Both the position numbers and the translations under genes were made by a program. A stretch of DNA of 64,000 bases from Octopus vulgaris (Eukaryota). Position 1 is the first letter of the stretch. Every line of letters starts with the position of its first letter. Location of the stretch: positions 83,328,001 through 83,392,000 of the forward strand of contig OX597816.1 of NCBI GenBank assembly GCA_951406725.2. The letters are read 5' to 3'. Below are positions 1,646 to 32,347 of the stretch, in pieces. Below the pieces are notes generated by a model. The model was not told where the DNA came from and ran no database searches. It saw only the letters and a list, made by a program, of their open reading frames with translations.

Positions 1646-2834
1646 TCGGAGCGAGGACCAACTAGCCATCCTTAAAGATGACTGATGACATGCATGGTGA
1701 TTTTGTTTAAAGTGAAGAAGAGTTGCGCACAGTGAAATGCATTCCTTCGTCCGTTAACATCTTCAATTCAATGGCAAGACCAGATCCAAGGGGATAGCTA
1801 ACATGTCGTATTTGGTTCACCAACATGTCTTATTTGGTTCATATTGTTCTCTGCATTCCACAATGTATTACTGCAGCGAGCTTCCTCTTCGTTAACCATG
1901 ATGGTATTTTCCGCACTCTGCCGGACCCAGTCTTTACAAGCATAGGTAGGCATGCCCCTAATATGCTAATTTAAACTCATAACTGGGACAGGTGTTACAA
2001 CAACGAGTCAAAGTAAAGCTTGGAACAAATTGGTTAAGAAGTGATTCCACGCTCCTCAAAAACCTTAGAACTTCCGAAACACTGCCCCACTACCGAATGC
2101 AGTTAAAAGTCAAATCATTGACAAAACCCTTGATACGATATGTCTGAACAACAACAAAAATAAATATAATAGTCAGAGCTAAAATATCTGTTATTACATA
2201 ATCATTATATGATTACTCAAATAAGCCTGGCCTCATTTTCTGTTCCTCTTTCTGTCACATACTCACGCGCGCGTGCACACACACACATACACACACACAC
2301 ACACACATACAACCCATTTTAATCCCGAGTCAAACAACTTTCCTAAAACCTCTTCGTTACAATCATTCATTGGTATAGTTATTCGTCATTCAAAATATAG
2401 ACAAATGAGCAAATATCTGAACAAAACAACCATTCCAAACGGCCTGCTGGTCTTATTCAGTTGCCAGCATTTCGTTGCATGGTTTTATCAGAGAAACAAG
2501 AGTTTTCCGAAACTTGTGTGAGAAAATTGAGGACGAATTAAGCGCCCCCGGTTTTATTGATCACTACATTATCCTAATAAGTAGAAATACTGGGACTAAC
2601 CCCAATATTTTCCAGATAGTAGTGCTATTAATGCAACCACCAGATAGTCACATAAAAATCAATCAAAAACTGCTGGCACTTAATTCACCTTTGTGGGTAT
2701 TGGTAGCATTTACTTTTCTCTTTTCATTGTAAACTTAGGCAGCGTGATCGAAACCAGGACGTCATAACTGCGAAGCGAACTTCTAACCATTCTGTAATAC
2801 TGTATCTTTATATACACATTCATTGATATATATA

Positions 2835-2867
<33 letters not shown>

Positions 2868-2868
<1 letters not shown>

Positions 2869-3176
2869 GAGGCGCAATGGCCCAGTGGTTAGGGCAGCGG
2901 ACTCGCGGTCGTAGGATCGCGGTTTCGATTCCCAGACCGAGCGTTGTGAGTGTTTATTGAGCGGAAACACCCAAAGCTCTACGAGGCTCCGGCATGGGGT
3001 GGAGGCGATCCCTACTGTACTCTTTCGCCACAACTTTCTCTCACTCTTTCTTCTGTTGGCCTGCTCGCTTAGCCAACGGATGGCGTCATTTGAAAGCTAA
3101 AAACAATGCGAAGCGCATTGTGGCCAGCGATGTGTAGCAGCATCTGATAGCCTGGTCGATCACGGTGATCGCGGTG

Positions 3177-3178
<2 letters not shown>
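2868..3178 (+). mobile_element. tRNA-Arg(TCG)-headed SINE, tail type A
   Basis: A box TGGCCCAGTGG, anticodon-like GGAC-TCG-CGGTC, B box GGTTTCGATTCC. The same head and body occur at 34130-34495(-), 38705-38910(-) and 58130-58500(+). Flanked by (GT)n and (TA)n. Confidence 0.85.
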
Positions 3179-3209
<31 letters not shown>

Positions 3210-3211
3210 TA

Positions 3212-3543
3212 CAGGAGGTAAATAGATACTTTTAATTTTCAAAATTTCTGATTTAAGCGTCTTAATATGATTTCAGCGGTGTAGAATTTACAATGTAATC
3301 ATTCTTTTTCATTCCATGTGCCATTATATTAAACATTTGTGAAGAGTAACCATGCCACGCTCAAAAATTTCAGCAGAACTGTCAGATTTTCGAAGAGGTT
3401 GTATTGTTGGGCAATCTGAAACTGGTCTTAGCCAGCGAAAAATTGCCGAAAATCTTCAAATTCCTCTTGCTACTGTTAATAGAATTATAGTGCAATTCAA
3501 AAGCCAAGGAAAAGAATCAACAGATTTTCGTCGAGGATTTTAA
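3212..3543 (+). pseudogene. Tc1-family transposase N-terminal (paired HTH) fragment with left end
   Basis: ORF 3352-3543 [50 protein letters not shown] resembles a Tc1 N-terminal HTH. The element appears to start at TA-CAG. No DDE domain follows. Confidence 0.7.
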
Positions 3544-4809
3544 ACTTGGTCTAGAGCCTCTTAAGTAAAGGAACCCGATTCAAAACAAGAAACTGATATA
3601 TTCCCCGAAATGAAGTAAACCCTAATGTACTTGAGAATAAATTAAACGCATCTTGATTGTCTTGGAGACTTCCAATTCACTTGTAGCATTCACACGTTAA
3701 GAACCTTTGCGAAAGTGTTCAAGAGTGTTAGCCTCAAATTGATCACTACTTTGTCGTACGCACGCGTGCACACACATACGCTCACTGAAACACACAGACA
3801 CACGCTAACACGTATGCACAGACCTACACTGTAGAAAATATACAGTTCTTGTTTATAACAAGGACATCTGTCAGATCACCCTCACCTGCCCTCTCATGCC
3901 TGTGTTGAACGAGCTAATGACGGGACTCGAACCAATGGAGAAGCTTGCATTTGGTCAGTTGATCTATTAGGAACTGTTGCGAGAAGTTTTTGAGAAATCA
4001 TTTTCTACTGTTTTTAAAAAAGAAAAGGCAAAAAATTGAATGATGTAGTCCTGGGTATACTGTCTTCTAGATTATTGTGCTTGAAAAATAAGACGAAATG
4101 GTCACAGATGGAATGTGTTAGATTAGCGCTAACTTAGGATAAAAAAAATAAAACAGACCAACAAGAACAATCAGAAACTGTTAGAATGTCGGAGTTGCAG
4201 AGGTCAATCCATTATTTGCATTCCTAGAAATTTGAAATGCCCTGAGTATCGGACGAGGAAATATAAATGAACGAAAAGAGAAAATTAAACCACAGAGAGA
4301 GAGGGTGATACAAACACGCAGTCAGAGAAAAGGGAAGAGAGAATCAGAGAGAGAGAGAGAGAGAGAGAGAAGAGAGGGGGGAGAAGAAGAAGTGAGACAA
4401 AGAAGAAAGGAAGTGTGTATGAAAGACGAGGCGGGGCGTTGAATGAGTTTCAAAGATACTGTATTCGAATTTGACAGTAAAAACACCATAAAGAGTTCGC
4501 TTGTCAACAACTTCGAGTCACGGACTCGTTTGGTCTCCACATATTTCTACGTCTTATAAAATAAACAGTCCAACCATGGTGTACTCTTGCTCTAACTGGC
4601 CCTTCCCCCTTCCAACCACCCTTTTATCACTCTCTATTAACCGTCAATTTGCCTCTATGTCTGTTTGGTTTTTCCTTTCAGTGTCCTACTGAGAAATTAA
4701 CGAAAATAGCGAAATACCCGCGAACGTATCATAGCATACCTCCAGGCGCTGTTTGTTGTTGTTGTTGTGTGTGCGCATGACTTGTATATGAGTGTATTTA
4801 TGTGTTTGT

Positions 4810-14225: not shown

Positions 14226-15489
14226 AGATGCAGTATTCATGGCCTCCGTTATTAAAAATCATTTGTTAAAGGAAGTGAAGATGGCTGATTAATACATGCA
14301 GGCATGGCTGTGCGGTTTAGGTGTTTGTTTCATTACCAGTCGCGTGATTCCAGGTTCAGTTCCTCTTCGCGCTATATTATACATAGCATCACTTTACTAT
14401 GAAATGTTCGTAGTTCGTGTTCAATTCCTTCGTATTAAAAAAAAGTTCACATTTTTAGCAATTCTACTTTATAAATAGAGATTTATATATCTTAAATTTA
14501 CAAAAGAATTTGTTGTTGGGGCAGTTTAGCTTAAAGTTAGAGCACTGCGACGCGTAATCACAGGGGTGTGAGTTCGAGTCTCATGGCTGACCGCCGACAT
14601 ATTTTTCTGTAAAATATAGGTAGTTTATCCTGTTCATGCTATATTATTAGCATTATACTGCGTTTGAGTATAAAATTTACTTCCTTAACTATATATATAT
14701 ATATATATATCGTGTACGTACACTTACACATAAGTATGCCTATATATTTACCCACCTACATGCATACACTTACACATAACATACATATATATCTTATGAC
14801 TTCTTCGACCAATTCAAAGAGAGGAGAGGCAAGACATTCTTGTTTTACTTATTGTTAATGTTGTTAATGCTAATATTGGTGCTGTTACTGTTGTTATTGT
14901 TGTTGCTGATTGTCGTTTTATTCCTCTTTCTCTTTCTCAATGATGTTTGAACTTTGTCTATAGCTTTATCCAAATCCAATCCCTTGCTTTAACTTCTTTT
15001 ATATCCGGCAAATAGATAATCCAAATGAAGCCAGTCGTACACGTTTCTCTTTGAAGACCGCACCAACTAAATCCTGTACCATCAACTCCCTCCCTCACAC
15101 ACACACAACTCACTAAAAAAATCTCTTAACTAAACTAAACTAACTCCTATACATGGCTTTAATTTCTTTCTTTATTTAGTTGTTTTTGTTTGTCTTACCT
15201 TCTTCGTGTTTTATTGTTTATTCTACATATTTCGGGATCGTTAGTTCGTCCGTCATTTGTCGCTGTTTCCTGCCGAGTCAATTGAAACTGTATCTTCTCC
15301 ACACACACACACTGACATCCCAATGATTAAATCCTCTTTACGTTGTAAATAGATCCTACGTGAAGGTACGGTTCAAATACTATTTATATCCCTCGGATAT
15401 ATGAGTGGAATTGTGATATTATGCAGCAATGAACTTGTATGTGGAAACTTAACTTCAATTGCATTCGCTATCACGTAAACGATTAAAAG

Positions 15490-15669: not shown

Positions 15670-15753
<84 letters not shown>

Positions 15754-15921
15754 CATAAGGGACTAAAGCCATCTGAATATGGCTAGGGACAGGGCAGGGT
15801 GGTGGGGGTGTTACTGTTGCATTTAGCCCCAGGCGAACATCGACGTCACCAGAAAGGCTCGACACCGTCACGGTGCCCTTAACCTGCAAAGGGAGGTAAT
15901 TCCCCGATGAAGCGGAAACCA

Positions 15922-15967
15922 CACACGGACCATGGTTTCAAGGTGTATTGCCTATCATCGGCGTGTG
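15922..15967 (-). ncRNA. Type I hammerhead ribozyme motif (inverted copy)
   Basis: Exact reverse complement of 16546-16591. Confidence 0.75.
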
Positions 15968-16545
15968 GTAGGCCTCCGCTTCCTCGACGAATTCTCACTC
16001 TGCAGGATTTTCTTATATAGATTTTCAAGCAAAATACATTTGCTGATTTCGCAGATGGCTTTAGTCCCTTATGTTATCGAGCAGTTACTGTCTATATCCC
16101 TTTTAGAGAATTATTATTGCTTTCGAACAGATCGAAATCAATGTTTTCTGGATGTAAATTCCAATCTATGAAAAGTTTCCGTTCAACAATATTCTTAAAG
16201 GAACGAAGAATTATCCAGCAACTCGGGCTAAAAGAACGAGTGTGGTGGGTGTAAAAGAATAACAGGCATCCCTTGTCAAGAGTACAGGTGTCGAGCCTTT
16301 CTGGTGACGTCGATGTTCGCCTGGGGCTAAATGCAACAGTAACACCCCCACCACCCTGCCCTGTCCCTAGCCATATTCAGATGGCTTTAGTCCCTTATGT
16401 TATCGAGCAGTTACTGTCTATATCCCTTTTAGAGAATTATTATTGCTTTCGAACAGATTTTCGAAATCAGCAAATGTATTTTGCTTGAAAATCTATATAA
16501 GAAAATCCTGCAGAGTGAGAATTCGTCGAGGAAGCGGAGGCCTAC

Positions 16546-16591
16546 CACACGCCGATGATAGGCAATACACCTTGAAACCATGGTCCGTGTG
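16546..16591 (+). ncRNA. Type I hammerhead ribozyme motif
   Basis: Helix I CACACG/CGUGUG. Core CCGAUGA (CUGANGA with C at position 4). Helix II AGG-caauaca-CCU, then GAAA, palindromic helix III ACCAUGGU and a GUC site (predicted cut after 16585). Confidence 0.8.
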
Positions 16592-16905
16592 TGGTTTCCG
16601 CTTCATCGGGGAATTACCTCCCTTTGCAGGTTAAGGGCACCGTGACGGTGTCGAGCCTTTCTGGTGACGTCGATGTTCGCCTGGGGCTAAATGCAACAGT
16701 AACACCCCCACCACCCTGCCCTGTCCCTAGCCATATTCAGATGGCTTTAGTCCCTTATGTTATCGAGCAGTTACTGTCTATATCCCTTTTAGAGAATTAT
16801 TATTGCTTTCGAACAGATTTTCGAAATCAGCAAATGTATTTTGCTTGAAAATCTATATAAGAAAATCCTGCAGAGTGAGAATTCGTCGAGGAAGCGGAGG
16901 CCTAC

Positions 16906-16951
16906 CACACGCCGATGATAGGCAATACACCTTGAAACCATGGTCCGTGTG
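16906..16951 (+). ncRNA. Type I hammerhead ribozyme motif (second tandem copy)
   Basis: Identical to 16546-16591, 360 nt downstream. Confidence 0.8.
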
Positions 16952-17192
16952 TGGTTTCCGCTTCATCGGGGAATTACCTCCCTTTGCAGGTTAAGGGCAC
17001 CGTGACGGTGTCGAGCCTTTCTGGTGACGTCGATGTTCGCCTGGGGCTAAATACAACAGTAACACCCCCACCACCCTGCCCTGTCCCTAGCCATATTCAG
17101 ATGGCTTTAGTCCCTTATGTTATCGAGCAGTTACTGTCTATATCCCTTTTAGAGAATTATTATTGCCTATATATATATATATATATATATAT

Positions 17193-17679
17193 CAGTGGCG
17201 ACTCCGGCACTCGGGCTGTTCAGACTTAGCCCGAGTATAAATTTAGTAAAGTAAACATGCATTTGCAAGCTGATTTAATTTCTGCCAATACTGACTTGAA
17301 GTATGTAATTGCAGCCAATAACTCGGGCTCCTTTTACTGAGCCTGGTCGCAGTTCATTTATTTTCGTTCATCGTCTGGCTGTCGTCTTAGAGGTACGCTG
17401 TGTCAGAAAATATCATTTGCAGCAGACATCGTTCATGCCCGTTTGGCTCGGGCTTAGAAGTTACAGCCCAAGTTGTTATCTATAATCGTAAAAATTAAAA
17501 GAAATTCAAATTCAATGTTTTCTGGATTTAAATTCCAATCTATGAAAAGTTTCCGTTCAACAATATTCTTAAAGGAACGAAGAATTATCCAGCAACTCGG
17601 GCTAAAAGAACGATTGTGGTGGGTGTAAAAGAATAACAGGCATCCCTTGTCAAGAGTACAGGTGAGAGACAAATCACTG
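17193..17679. mobile_element. Possible hAT-like MITE with repeated CTCGGGCT motifs
   Basis: Starts CAGTGGCG and ends ATCACTG. CTCGGGCT/AGCCCGAG occurs five times. TIR is short and TSD is poor. Confidence 0.35.
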
Positions 17680-17892
17680 ATGTTTGTTGTGCACTCCGCT
17701 GACGTTATTTGATTGTTGTTATTTTGTGCGTCTGTGCGTAATGATCAGTTGTGTTAATGCCTTTAACTACAAGTGCAAACAAGTGGAGTCAGAGAAAGGC
17801 AGAAGCCATAAATCTGAACACTACTATAGAAATATTCGAAAAAGGTGAAATCTTTTCTTCTAATTTTTCTAAATTTAATTATTTAATCGTTA

Positions 17893-17930
17893 CAGTTGAA
17901 AAGGTCTCAAAATGACCGAAACCGGTACTG
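17893..17930 (+). ncRNA. Degenerate minimal hammerhead (Penelope-type) before (TA)n
   Basis: CAG-UUGAAAA-GGUC-ucaaaau-GACC-GAAA-CCGG-UA-CUG. Helices I and II and the palindromic ACCGGU are intact; the core is mutated. Confidence 0.6.
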
Positions 17931-17941
17931 AAATGTTCACT

Positions 17942-17992
<51 letters not shown>

Positions 17993-28942: not shown

Positions 28943-29660
28943 CACACATACATAGGTATAAAAATGTATACACACACATTCACACATACTAACACGTACG
29001 TATATATATAGATTTAACCTGCACTACGGATACAATATGTTTCTAAAAATTTTACAGCCATGTGGAATTCCGTAACGAGAAATCTGTTACACACTGCCTT
29101 CCATGTAACGTAGAAGTCTGTATCGTCAACGAAAATATGATTCTCGTTACGGAATATTGTCTTAGAAACACAACGTTTCCATAACGAAGGAGGTGCCTGT
29201 ATATATACAATTATGTATGCGCGTGTATGCATCTGTGTGTGTGTGTGTGGGGGGGCGTGCATACGTATGTATGTATCTCTATATATATGTATGTGCGCAC
29301 GTGTTTGTGCACGTCGATGAGTGTTGTATGTGTTCACGTGTATGTATTTGGGTAAGTGTATATAAACTTTATAGATATACAGTTACACAGTGTTGATATG
29401 TCCATATTCTTTGCACGCTTTGTAGATAGAATTCTAGATATAATTGTTAGAGTATGTTTATATATGTCTGTCTACTACTCTGTCTAGCTACCGTGATAGA
29501 TATACTCGTACAATGTACATACATATATACATATATGCGTACAAATATACGTACTTATTTTATATATATATACATATATACATACATTTATACGGACACA
29601 AACACATATATTTGCATTTGTAAGTAAACACACGTGTATATAAATGTATGTATACATACA

Positions 29661-29692
<32 letters not shown>

Positions 29693-29698
<6 letters not shown>

Positions 29699-29995
29699 AA
29701 TCCAAACGGGAAAACAGAAAAAACAACAACACGTGGAACAATTACAGTATTATTATTAATAGGCGCTCAGGAAAGATGGAAGCAGGAAGGTATGACGTTT
29801 CGAGCGGAGCTCTTCGTCGGAAACATAAAGAAGGAAGAGAGAGGAAAGAAAGATCCCAAAGTGGGCAACAAGAGATGGAGAAAAAAAACGACTGGTGTTT
29901 ACGAAGTACACATGGTGAAAGGCGGAAGTTTACGATAACAAGAGCAAAGTAGGTTTTTAAAGCCAAAAGAGTGGAGACAGGGTTGGTAACGCAAC
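29693..29995 (-). mobile_element. (TA)n-anchored Penelope-like pLTR fragment, family X1, hammerhead-like motif at 29790-29824
   Basis: Minus strand GUUU-CCGACGA-aGAG-cuccg-CUC-GAAA-CG-UC-AUAC. Homologous to 31985-32275 and 41003-41215. Confidence 0.65.
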
Positions 29996-31984: not shown

Positions 31985-32270
31985 TCGAGTTGTTACCAAC
32001 CTTCTTTTTTCCGCTCTCCTGTCTTTAAAAACCTGCCCCTGTTGTCCAAAACTTCCGGCCTTTCAGCATGTTTACTTCGTAAAAACCAGTCGCGTTGTTT
32101 TCCCTCTGTTCGCCCGCCTCGGGATCTTTCTTTCTCTTATGTTTCCGACGAAGAGCTCCGCTCGAAACGTTATACCCTCCTTCTTCCCTTTTTCCTGAGC
32201 GCCTAATAATAATACTTTAATTGTTCCACCTCCTTGTGTTGTTGTTTTTTCTGTTTTCTCGTTTGGATTA

Positions 32271-32275
<5 letters not shown>
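31985..32275 (+). mobile_element. (TA)n-anchored Penelope-like pLTR fragment, family X1, hammerhead-like motif at 32141-32175
   Basis: GUUU-CCGACGA-aGAG-cuccg-CUC-GAAA-CG-UU-AUAC. The 3' end runs directly into (TA)n. Confidence 0.65.

Positions 32276-32347
<72 letters not shown>

What the first reader, a model, noticed from the sequence alone, without database searches (positions are those of the whole stretch)
16287..17166. Young 360-nt tandem unit carrying a hammerhead ribozyme: candidate cephalopod retrozyme or self-cleaving circular RNA element
Seen: about 2.4 head-to-tail copies with an exact 360-bp period and only one visible substitution. Each full copy contains CACACG-CCGAUGA-uAGGcaauacaCCUu-GAAA-CCAUGG-UC-CGUGUG, has no credible protein, and the array is flanked by (TA)n. 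Established: type I hammerheads with a short palindromic helix III occur in Penelope-like pseudo-LTRs and in non-LTR retrozymes. There, tandem copies cleave, often as dimers, to release unit-length RNAs that can circularise. Inference: a + strand transcript would be cut after 16585 and 16945, releasing an exact 360-nt monomer, with helix III (ACCAUGGU) formed between neighbouring copies. Near-identity implies recent mobility. I do not recognise this family.
Basis: partly seen in the sequence, partly recalled or inferred. Interest (0 to 1): 0.9.

Follow-up and report, generated by a model that had tools for sequence, protein, structure and literature searches.

The report
Penelope-mobilised hammerhead retrozyme, rolling-circle footprints
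A 360-base non-coding repeat with a predicted self-cutting RNA motif has recently spread to hundreds of sites in this animal genome, and the shape of those insertions suggests that a Penelope-type enzyme likely copies one small RNA circle from both strands of the target at once.

Summary
The 360-bp array and its type I hammerhead are real. The insertion is larger than reported (15750-17166) and has an inverted arm with a third hammerhead. The genome holds about 1,300 motif copies in hundreds of dispersed, near-identical, ORF-less insertions, nearly all in (TA)n. It is a young animal non-LTR retrozyme. It is not the pLTR of an attached Penelope ORF: no unit joined an ORF in 97 stretches.

The new evidence is the footprint. 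In 70 of 72 classifiable head-to-head insertions, one arm ends at unit position ~317 and the other at ~360 (the Penelope 'tail' on one side only). Intact Neptune-type elements here show the same asymmetry. Both arms share one haplotype across up to 24 laps, cross the cut site without scars, and often stop together. Best reading: a Penelope dimer likely primes two cDNAs on one circular monomer and rolls around it.

Cleavage, circles and the partner enzyme are untested. Rfam does not score the motif, which carries weakening changes. This scan noted Penelope-type insertion marks on other tandem units in other genomes, not on this family.

The parts
15673..15752 (.). (TA)40 target tract, left edge of the insertion
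15750..16051 (-). Inverted arm, unit positions 16-317 (unit numbered from window 16447); outer end is the short, tail-less start site
15922..15967 (-). Third hammerhead motif, on the minus strand (C3 at 15961)
16052..16140 (+). Forward piece of the unit (292-360, then 1-12 and 16-23), joined head-to-head to the inverted arm
16138..16290 (+). 153-bp copy (151 of 153 identical) of flank 17512-17664, with 3-4 bp microhomologies at both ends; likely a template switch to neighbouring DNA and back
16287..17166 (+). Tandem arm, 2.44 units; outer end is the long, tailed start site (unit 360)
16507..16631 (+). Predicted long rod (unit 61-105 paired with 140-185) that extends helix I and carries the hammerhead at its tip
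16546..16591 (+). Type I hammerhead 1 (U4C core variant, U.U closing helix II, palindromic helix III); predicted cut after 16585
16586..16945 (+). Predicted 360-nt released monomer or circle
   Evidence: circular fold, z -5.2; cleavage inferred
16764..16806 (+). 43-nt 'tail' between the two start sites (unit 318-360), predicted stem-loop; repeated at 16078-16120, 16404-16446 and 17124-17166
16906..16951 (+). Type I hammerhead 2; predicted cut after 16945
17168..17192 (.). (TA)12 target tract, right edge

Best explanation
This is a young, ORF-less hammerhead retrozyme whose tandem transcript is predicted to self-cleave into a 360-nt monomer that likely circularises and is likely copied into (TA)n by a borrowed Penelope-type enzyme, which would prime two cDNAs, one from each target strand, on a single RNA circle. 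Shown: the family, its lack of an ORF, the (TA)n target, head-to-head arms, one short and one long outer end per insertion, one haplotype per insertion, and seamless passage through the cut site. Inferred steps: (1) two neighbouring hammerheads pair through the palindromic helix III and cut after 16585 and 16945; (2) a host ligase closes the monomer, in which the ribozyme is folded inactive; (3) a dimeric RT/GIY-YIG protein binds the tail stem-loop and makes a staggered cut of about 10 bp; (4) one RT starts at unit ~317 and the other at ~360, and both roll round the circle for a fraction of a lap up to about 15 laps; (5) the two cDNA 3' ends are joined head-to-head with 0-5 bp overlap. The partner is most likely a Neptune-type element, but it is not identified.
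For: Ends: 70 of 72 classifiable two-armed insertions have one end at ~317 and one at ~360 (3 more unclassifiable; p 6e-19), and 57 of 57 do so in the C1+C2 subset, which was chosen mostly by position rather than by identity to the window. 165 of 171 outer ends abut (TA)n. Two insertions outside TA show 9-11 bp target duplications. Inverted copies of two autonomous RT+GIY-YIG families here (L056, L068) also lie in TA with a tail on one arm only. One template: arms agree at 148 of 153 diagnostic-site calls, against 13% for shuffled arm pairs. Both arms stop within 10 nt of the same template position in 11 of 65 insertions against 2.2 expected, with no such peak modulo 360 among distant pairs (4 of 34 within 20 nt, 3.9 expected). 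Monomer bottleneck: 19 haplotypes among 47 multi-lap insertions, each uniform over up to 24 laps, with variants fixed in every covering lap of a single insertion. Not a cleaved linear monomer: 237 passes over the cut site, 4 stops nearby against 2.1 expected, and no excess of scars. Ribozyme: 94.7% of cells paired, 21 double changes, 0 of 500 shuffles as high. The palindrome is kept through four different sequences. Circular fold z -5.2 on the plus strand. In vitro, a Penelope protein cuts and extends both strands, starts at two sites bounding the tail, and is predicted to be a dimer (PMC11167929).
Against: No cleavage, ligation or circular RNA was observed. Rfam does not score the motif. The core carries U4C, which considerably lowers activity in vitro (PMC3088659). 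A sister subfamily spread with a U3.G8 core, so cleavage may be weak. Eight of nine predicted Xenopus retrozymes did not cleave (10.64898/2026.07.22.740005). In the anole element, ribozyme mutants did not affect insertion and unprocessed RNA was the dominant substrate (PMC11167929). No autonomous element sharing the unit's sequence was found in 58 stretches, about 50 loci out of 6136 candidates. One young haplotype clade has uniformly long arms (median 1345 nt against 260-435), which a long linear source would also explain. A shared haplotype in both arms could reflect one dominant source locus rather than one molecule. Most minority variants are probably post-insertion, so the matched-lap (2 shared, 69 unshared) and mirror tests (2 of 28) have low power. 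Five laps with dense mismatches were dropped before those counts; one of them (C1:71917400) looks like a switch to another haplotype. The 16 aligned hammerheads come from only four families, so the shuffle test overstates support.
Confidence: 0.62

Rival explanations
1. Same non-autonomous element and same twin-primed Penelope insertion, but the template is an uncut linear multimeric transcript of an existing array, and the weakened hammerhead is mostly a passenger.
For: U4C, U.U and, in a sister subfamily, U3.G8. Ribozyme activity was dispensable in vitro for the anole element (PMC11167929). Array length looks heritable in one clade. Seamless passage through the cut site fits this model too.
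Against: Linear copying can only shorten arrays and cannot fix a new variant in every lap. Yet the five youngest long insertions already show three distinct uniform haplotypes, one variant being fixed in all covering laps of both arms of a 10-lap insertion. Variants shared by several minority laps are rare (8 records in 4 insertions).
Confidence: 0.2
2. Concatemers come from repeated template jumps on cleaved linear monomers, or the inverted arm is a fold-back (self-primed) copy that the endonuclease trims at the tail, as proposed for rotifer Penelopes.
For: RT plainly switches templates here: the window's flank copy and foreign inserts at two other junctions. Self-priming was proposed to explain head-to-head repeats (PMC3846280), and endonuclease resolution to explain the tail (PMC8557442). 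The near-zero stop offset in 11 of 65 insertions also suits hairpins.
Against: No excess of stops or scars at the cut site. In 21 of 65 insertions the arm lengths cannot be reached by simple fold-back of one first strand. The offset peak is absent modulo 360. Only 2 of 28 testable variants are mirrored, a low-power test.
Confidence: 0.1
3. The unit is the pLTR of an autonomous Penelope family that was not sampled, and these are its truncated ends.
For: Every insertion mark is Penelope-like. Only 40 of 712 unit candidates and 150 of 6136 GIY-YIG candidates were scored. In Xenopus, 21 of 57 retrozyme families or their matches map to PLE termini (10.64898/2026.07.22.740005).
Against: 89 of 171 arms exceed one unit and run into another unit, not into an endonuclease ORF. 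PLE fragments in 6 of 97 stretches lie at least ~190 bases away. The hammerhead has a full helix I and a two-pair helix III, unlike the minimal pLTR motifs of the autonomous families seen here. Older relatives are also ORF-less where examined (23 stretches).
Confidence: 0.08

Closest known systems
Animal non-LTR retrozymes (Cervera and de la Pena 2020, PMC7229834; e.g. mussel ~350-390 bp, axolotl 331/353 bp)
   Same: Short non-coding tandem unit with a type I hammerhead, short palindromic helix III, highly self-paired predicted circle. The U.U at the base of helix II also occurs in axolotl HHR_Amex2.
   Different: A distinct family (no Rfam hit, no earlier scan match); GC 46.9%; U4C core. The main text of that paper has no mention of inverted arms or microsatellite targets, and its mobilising enzyme was only a candidate. 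Here hundreds of insertions carry the Penelope signature. Circles were shown there and are untested here.
Retrozymes as non-autonomous PLE derivatives (Li, Clavereau, Pollet 2026, bioRxiv 10.64898/2026.07.22.740005)
   Same: Same conclusion: non-LTR retrozymes depend on Penelope-like elements.
   Different: That study rests on co-occurrence and pLTR homology, mostly in vertebrates, and favours local tandem amplification; the words 'tail' and 'mollusc' do not occur in its main text. Here the link is the insertion footprint, no homologous pLTR was found, and arrays appear to land ready-made.
EN+ Penelope-like elements, Neptune type; Poseidon of Anolis (PMC11167929, PMC8557442, PMC3846280)
   Same: Head-to-head inverted 5' copy, 30-40 nt tail often at one end only, microsatellite target, 8-10 bp target duplication, two RT start sites bounding the tail.
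   Different: No ORF; 43-nt tail; up to about 15 exact laps per arm. The one-short, one-long rule is near absolute here (70 of 72), whereas in vitro no difference in start site between strands was seen.
Non-autonomous Chlamys PLEs such as MRC1 (PMC8557442)
   Same: Non-autonomous, multicopy head-to-tail insertions mobilised by a PLE.
   Different: [quoted passage not shown]

Membership tests
Animal non-LTR retrozyme | Short (~150-400 nt) head-to-tail repeats, dimers to multimers | tested here: met
   360 bp; arrays up to 24 laps
Animal non-LTR retrozyme | Type I hammerhead motif in each unit | tested here: met
   Motif and covariation; not scored by Rfam; U4C variant
Animal non-LTR retrozyme | No protein coding capacity, no attached RT | tested here: met
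Animal non-LTR retrozyme | Low GC (<45% in PMC7229834 Fig. 1; <50% in PMC7761336) | tested here: inconclusive
   46.9%, between the two stated limits
Animal non-LTR retrozyme | Highly self-paired monomer | tested here: met
   Circular MFE -116 kcal/mol, 67% paired, z -5.2 against 100 shuffles
Animal non-LTR retrozyme | Dispersed, mobile copies | tested here: met
Animal non-LTR retrozyme | Self-cleavage of the transcript | not testable with these tools
   Needs an in vitro assay
Animal non-LTR retrozyme | Accumulates as circular RNA | tested here: inconclusive
   Single-haplotype 390-nt (360+30) head-to-tail contigs in runs X6 and X14; the runs are only guessed to be RNA, and a tandem transcript or DNA gives the same contig
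Autonomous EN+ Penelope-like element (pLTR) | Repeat flanks an RT + GIY-YIG ORF | tested here: not met
   0 of 97 stretches contiguous with an ORF; 0 of 58 PLE stretches carry the unit as their pLTR; sampling incomplete
PLE-mobilised insertion | Head-to-head inverted 5' copy | tested here: met
   75 of 96 classified insertions
PLE-mobilised insertion | 30-40 nt tail at one end only | tested here: met
   43 nt; 70 of 72
PLE-mobilised insertion | AT-rich or microsatellite target with short target duplication | tested here: met
   165 of 171 ends in TA; 9-11 bp duplications at two non-TA sites
PLE-mobilised insertion | Sequence likeness to a partner's pLTR or tail | tested here: not met
   No match by blastn or nhmmer in 58 stretches

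The most novel reading that the evidence does not exclude
These insertions are a genomic record of the Penelope reaction on a circular RNA. One enzyme dimer grips the tail stem-loop of a single 360-nt ribozyme-made circle, primes one cDNA from each target strand at the two feet of that loop, and rolls both round the circle. That one mechanism would explain the inverted repeats, the one-sided tail and the tandems of Penelope elements, and would be direct sequence evidence that animal retrozyme circles are the transposition template.
Probability: 0.5. Interest if true: 0.8.

Novelty: new member of a known kind. Interest (0 to 1): 0.6.

Why it matters
Two questions are stated as open in the papers read: which enzyme moves animal retrozymes and whether their circles are the template (PMC7229834, PMC7761336), and how Penelope elements make tandem and inverted copies with a one-sided tail (PMC8557442). 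This family gives hundreds of near-identical insertions of a 360-nt substrate in a genome that also holds intact-looking Neptune-type ORFs. The statistics make sharp predictions: one start site per strand, one template per insertion, rolling through the cut site. These can be tested directly in the existing in vitro Penelope assay. The element class itself is known.

Tried and rejected
Rfam searches found no hammerhead family at the finding. A family search by an accession recalled from memory was not in the library, so GIY-YIG was used instead. The hunt for an autonomous partner failed: blastn and nhmmer against 58 PLE-anchored stretches hit only separate insertions of older retrozyme relatives (L068 and L049 viewed; L061 judged by position only). 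Tails of the two young Neptune-type families did not align by eye with the unit's tail. Sequencing runs: no RNA holder listed; contigs cannot show ends or circles, and no pile-up of ends was reported. Run-off at the hammerhead site was tested and not found. The arm-specific differences printed were largely a masking artefact and were recomputed. Weakening of the rod did not explain the long-array clade (-62.7 against -62.4 kcal/mol). A coding or endless-ORF circle was rejected. An assembly artefact was rejected: copies lie on many contigs, the joint appears in contigs of three studies, and flanks are unique. The junction-pattern counts cannot be compared with each other, because the long-end pattern misses tail variants and minus-strand hits are listed more than once. 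Two regex scans returned little or nothing through pattern errors; the first was redone, the second was dropped. Not seen: PMC5785218 (not held), the supplement of PMC7229834 (unreadable) and the preprint's supplements; any of these, or Repbase, could list this family.

Full report
Observation. The array is as described: period 360, 2.4 copies, one substitution at 17053. Two type I hammerhead motifs have their GUC ending at 16585 and 16945. The insertion is larger than reported. After (TA)40 comes an inverted arm (15750-16051) with a third hammerhead, then a short forward piece, a 153-bp copy of flank lying about 350-500 bp downstream of the insertion, the tandem arm, and (TA)12. Unit positions below count from window 16447. 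The flank beyond 17193 is an unrelated older repeat.

Family. The window lies in an unnamed 2.8-Gb animal genome. The unit gave 232 matches from the 40 of 712 candidates scored, mostly 99-100% identical, on many contigs. The hammerhead pattern has 1370 matches against 7 for the control; 95 of the first 100 listed are this family. The short-end junction pattern has 288 forward matches, so I infer roughly 600 insertions. Older relatives exist: family B (2621 candidates, about 90% identity among copies) and two further families seen in three copies. The monomer has stops in all six frames and folds as a circle at -116 kcal/mol, z -5.2 on the plus strand and -2.4 on the minus strand.

Ribozyme. 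Rfam does not score it. The core has U4C and helix II is closed by U.U. PMC3088659 (passages) says U4C lowers activity considerably in vitro yet supports viroid infectivity. PMC7229834 (parts 3-4 and passages read) reports a U.U-closed axolotl motif that cleaves well as a dimer. Across 16 copies from four families, 94.7% of cells pair and 21 show double changes (0 of 500 shuffles; slid controls at most 60%), with the caveat that the rows are related. The helix III segment stays self-complementary through four different sequences, including a two-base compensatory change within this family. The computed duplex is -11.2 kcal/mol and the monomer hairpin +2.9; in the circular monomer helix III has probability about 0. 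I infer cleavage as a dimer in tandem transcripts and silence in the circle. A long rod around the hammerhead is kept with different sequences in families A, C and D. Against: a sister subfamily spread with U3.G8, and eight of nine Xenopus predictions failed to cleave (10.64898/2026.07.22.740005, parts 1-3 of 5 read).

pLTR or retrozyme. Three PLE proteins from this genome were searched against 97 merged stretches holding the unit. Six stretches had PLE fragments, none contiguous with the unit. Of 171 arms, 89 exceed one unit and wrap into the next unit; the longest is 5303 nt. The templates therefore lacked an ORF. No pLTR like the unit was found in 58 GIY-YIG-anchored stretches (about 50 loci; only 150 of 6136 candidates were scored). 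The partner is unknown.

Penelope signature. The 97 stretches gave 75 two-armed head-to-head insertions and 21 single arms; 2 were excluded (one scrambled, one cut by the stretch end) and one stretch held two insertions. Outer ends fall almost only at ~317 or ~360, and 165 of 171 abut (TA)n. In 70 of 72 classifiable two-armed insertions one end is short and the other long (p 6e-19). In the C1+C2 subset it is 57 of 57. Single arms are mostly short (18 of 21). Two sites outside TA show 9-11 bp duplications. The 43 nt between the two ends form a predicted stem-loop. This is the Penelope tail, described as often present at only one end (PMC8557442, passages and section 15; PMC3846280, passages) and shown to lie between two RT start sites (PMC11167929, parts 1-2 of 4 read). 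The genome holds young RT + GIY-YIG elements with the CX2-5CxxC linker of Neptune/Nematis (visible). Their inverted copies L056 and L068 show the same TA target and one-sided tail.

One template, probably circular. Arms of one insertion agree at 148 of 153 diagnostic calls in 41 informative insertions of 73; shuffled pairs agree at 13%. Arm lengths correlate (Spearman 0.59), and 11 of 65 pairs stop within 10 nt of the same template position against 2.2 expected. Among 47 multi-lap insertions there are 19 haplotypes, each uniform over up to 24 laps, and some variants are fixed in all covering laps of one insertion only. Linear copying of arrays cannot fix a new variant in every lap, so a monomer must be re-concatenated. 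Arms cross the cut site 237 times with 4 nearby stops (2.1 expected) and 3 minority changes in 2135 nt (0.23% overall), which argues against jumping between cleaved monomers. Stops are two to three times more frequent at 140-200, where RT would enter the rod. Limits: five mismatch-dense laps were dropped; most minority variants are probably post-insertion, so lap-matching tests are weak; one dominant source locus would also make arms agree; and the youngest clade has uniformly long arms, which is unexplained and compatible with long linear sources.

Reads. No listed holder is on record as RNA. Two runs guessed to be RNA each hold a single-haplotype 390-nt contig closing on itself, and a third shows the same joint. 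This cannot separate a circle from a tandem transcript, so it is a hint only. Runs under other organism labels hold the family too.

Comparison and verdict. It meets the testable features of animal non-LTR retrozymes (GC is borderline) and fails the test for an autonomous pLTR. That retrozymes derive from and depend on PLEs is already proposed (PMC7229834; PMC7761336, passages; the 2026 preprint). Nine full-text searches found no description of this family or of a cephalopod retrozyme, and none reporting the short/long pairing as a rule or the one-haplotype evidence. Unread supplements, subscription journals and Repbase could hold it. Earlier scan notes describe Penelope-type marks on other small elements in other genomes; none matched this sequence. 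Verdict: a new member of a known kind, with an unusually clean mechanistic footprint; interest 0.6.

Noticed in passing
L062:581-2020 and 1939-4284 (also L054, L064): The young 781-aa Neptune-type PLE has a separate upstream 479-aa open frame overlapping it by about 80 nt in another frame, in at least three copies. Canonical PLEs are described with a single ORF.
   Followed up: partly
L128, L131, L164, L166, L192: The haplotype clade with changes at unit 316 and 338 (short start site and tail) has arms with median 1345 nt against 260-435 nt for the others, and almost no private mutations: youth, processivity or long sources.
   Followed up: partly
L140, L152, L153, L158: A sister subfamily has a U3.G8 hammerhead core, yet spread and wraps through units; two copies carry a compensatory palindrome change.
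   Followed up: partly
L099-L120, L138:1057-1216, L049:15-263: Older ORF-less relatives (at least three more families) with the same hammerhead-rod layout and, in family B, the same tail: a long-lived retrozyme lineage.
   Followed up: partly
window 17769-17950: Remnant of a PLE end, 92% identical to L212:218-399, with a minimal hammerhead-like motif of the U3-A8 type (weak Rfam HH9 hit, 20 bits), ending in TA.
   Followed up: partly
window 29628-29990 and 31992-32339: Two oppositely oriented copies (80% identical) of another PLE-end-like repeat, each with a minimal hammerhead-like motif; 79% to sequence near PLE loci L047/L212.
   Followed up: no
window 17195-17700: Older dispersed repeat, about 80% identity among the best copies, 870 candidates; class not determined.
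   Followed up: no
L196 and L192 (between arms): Foreign inserts at the head-to-head junction (263 nt; about 670 nt interleaved with unit fragments), like the window's flank capture.
   Followed up: no
L132: Three linked changes recur in non-adjacent laps of both arms of a 17-lap insertion: gene conversion, or a recurrent error on one template.
   Followed up: no
window 14520-14592: tRNA-like Rfam match at the threshold (29 bits), not called by ARAGORN; possibly a SINE head.
   Followed up: no
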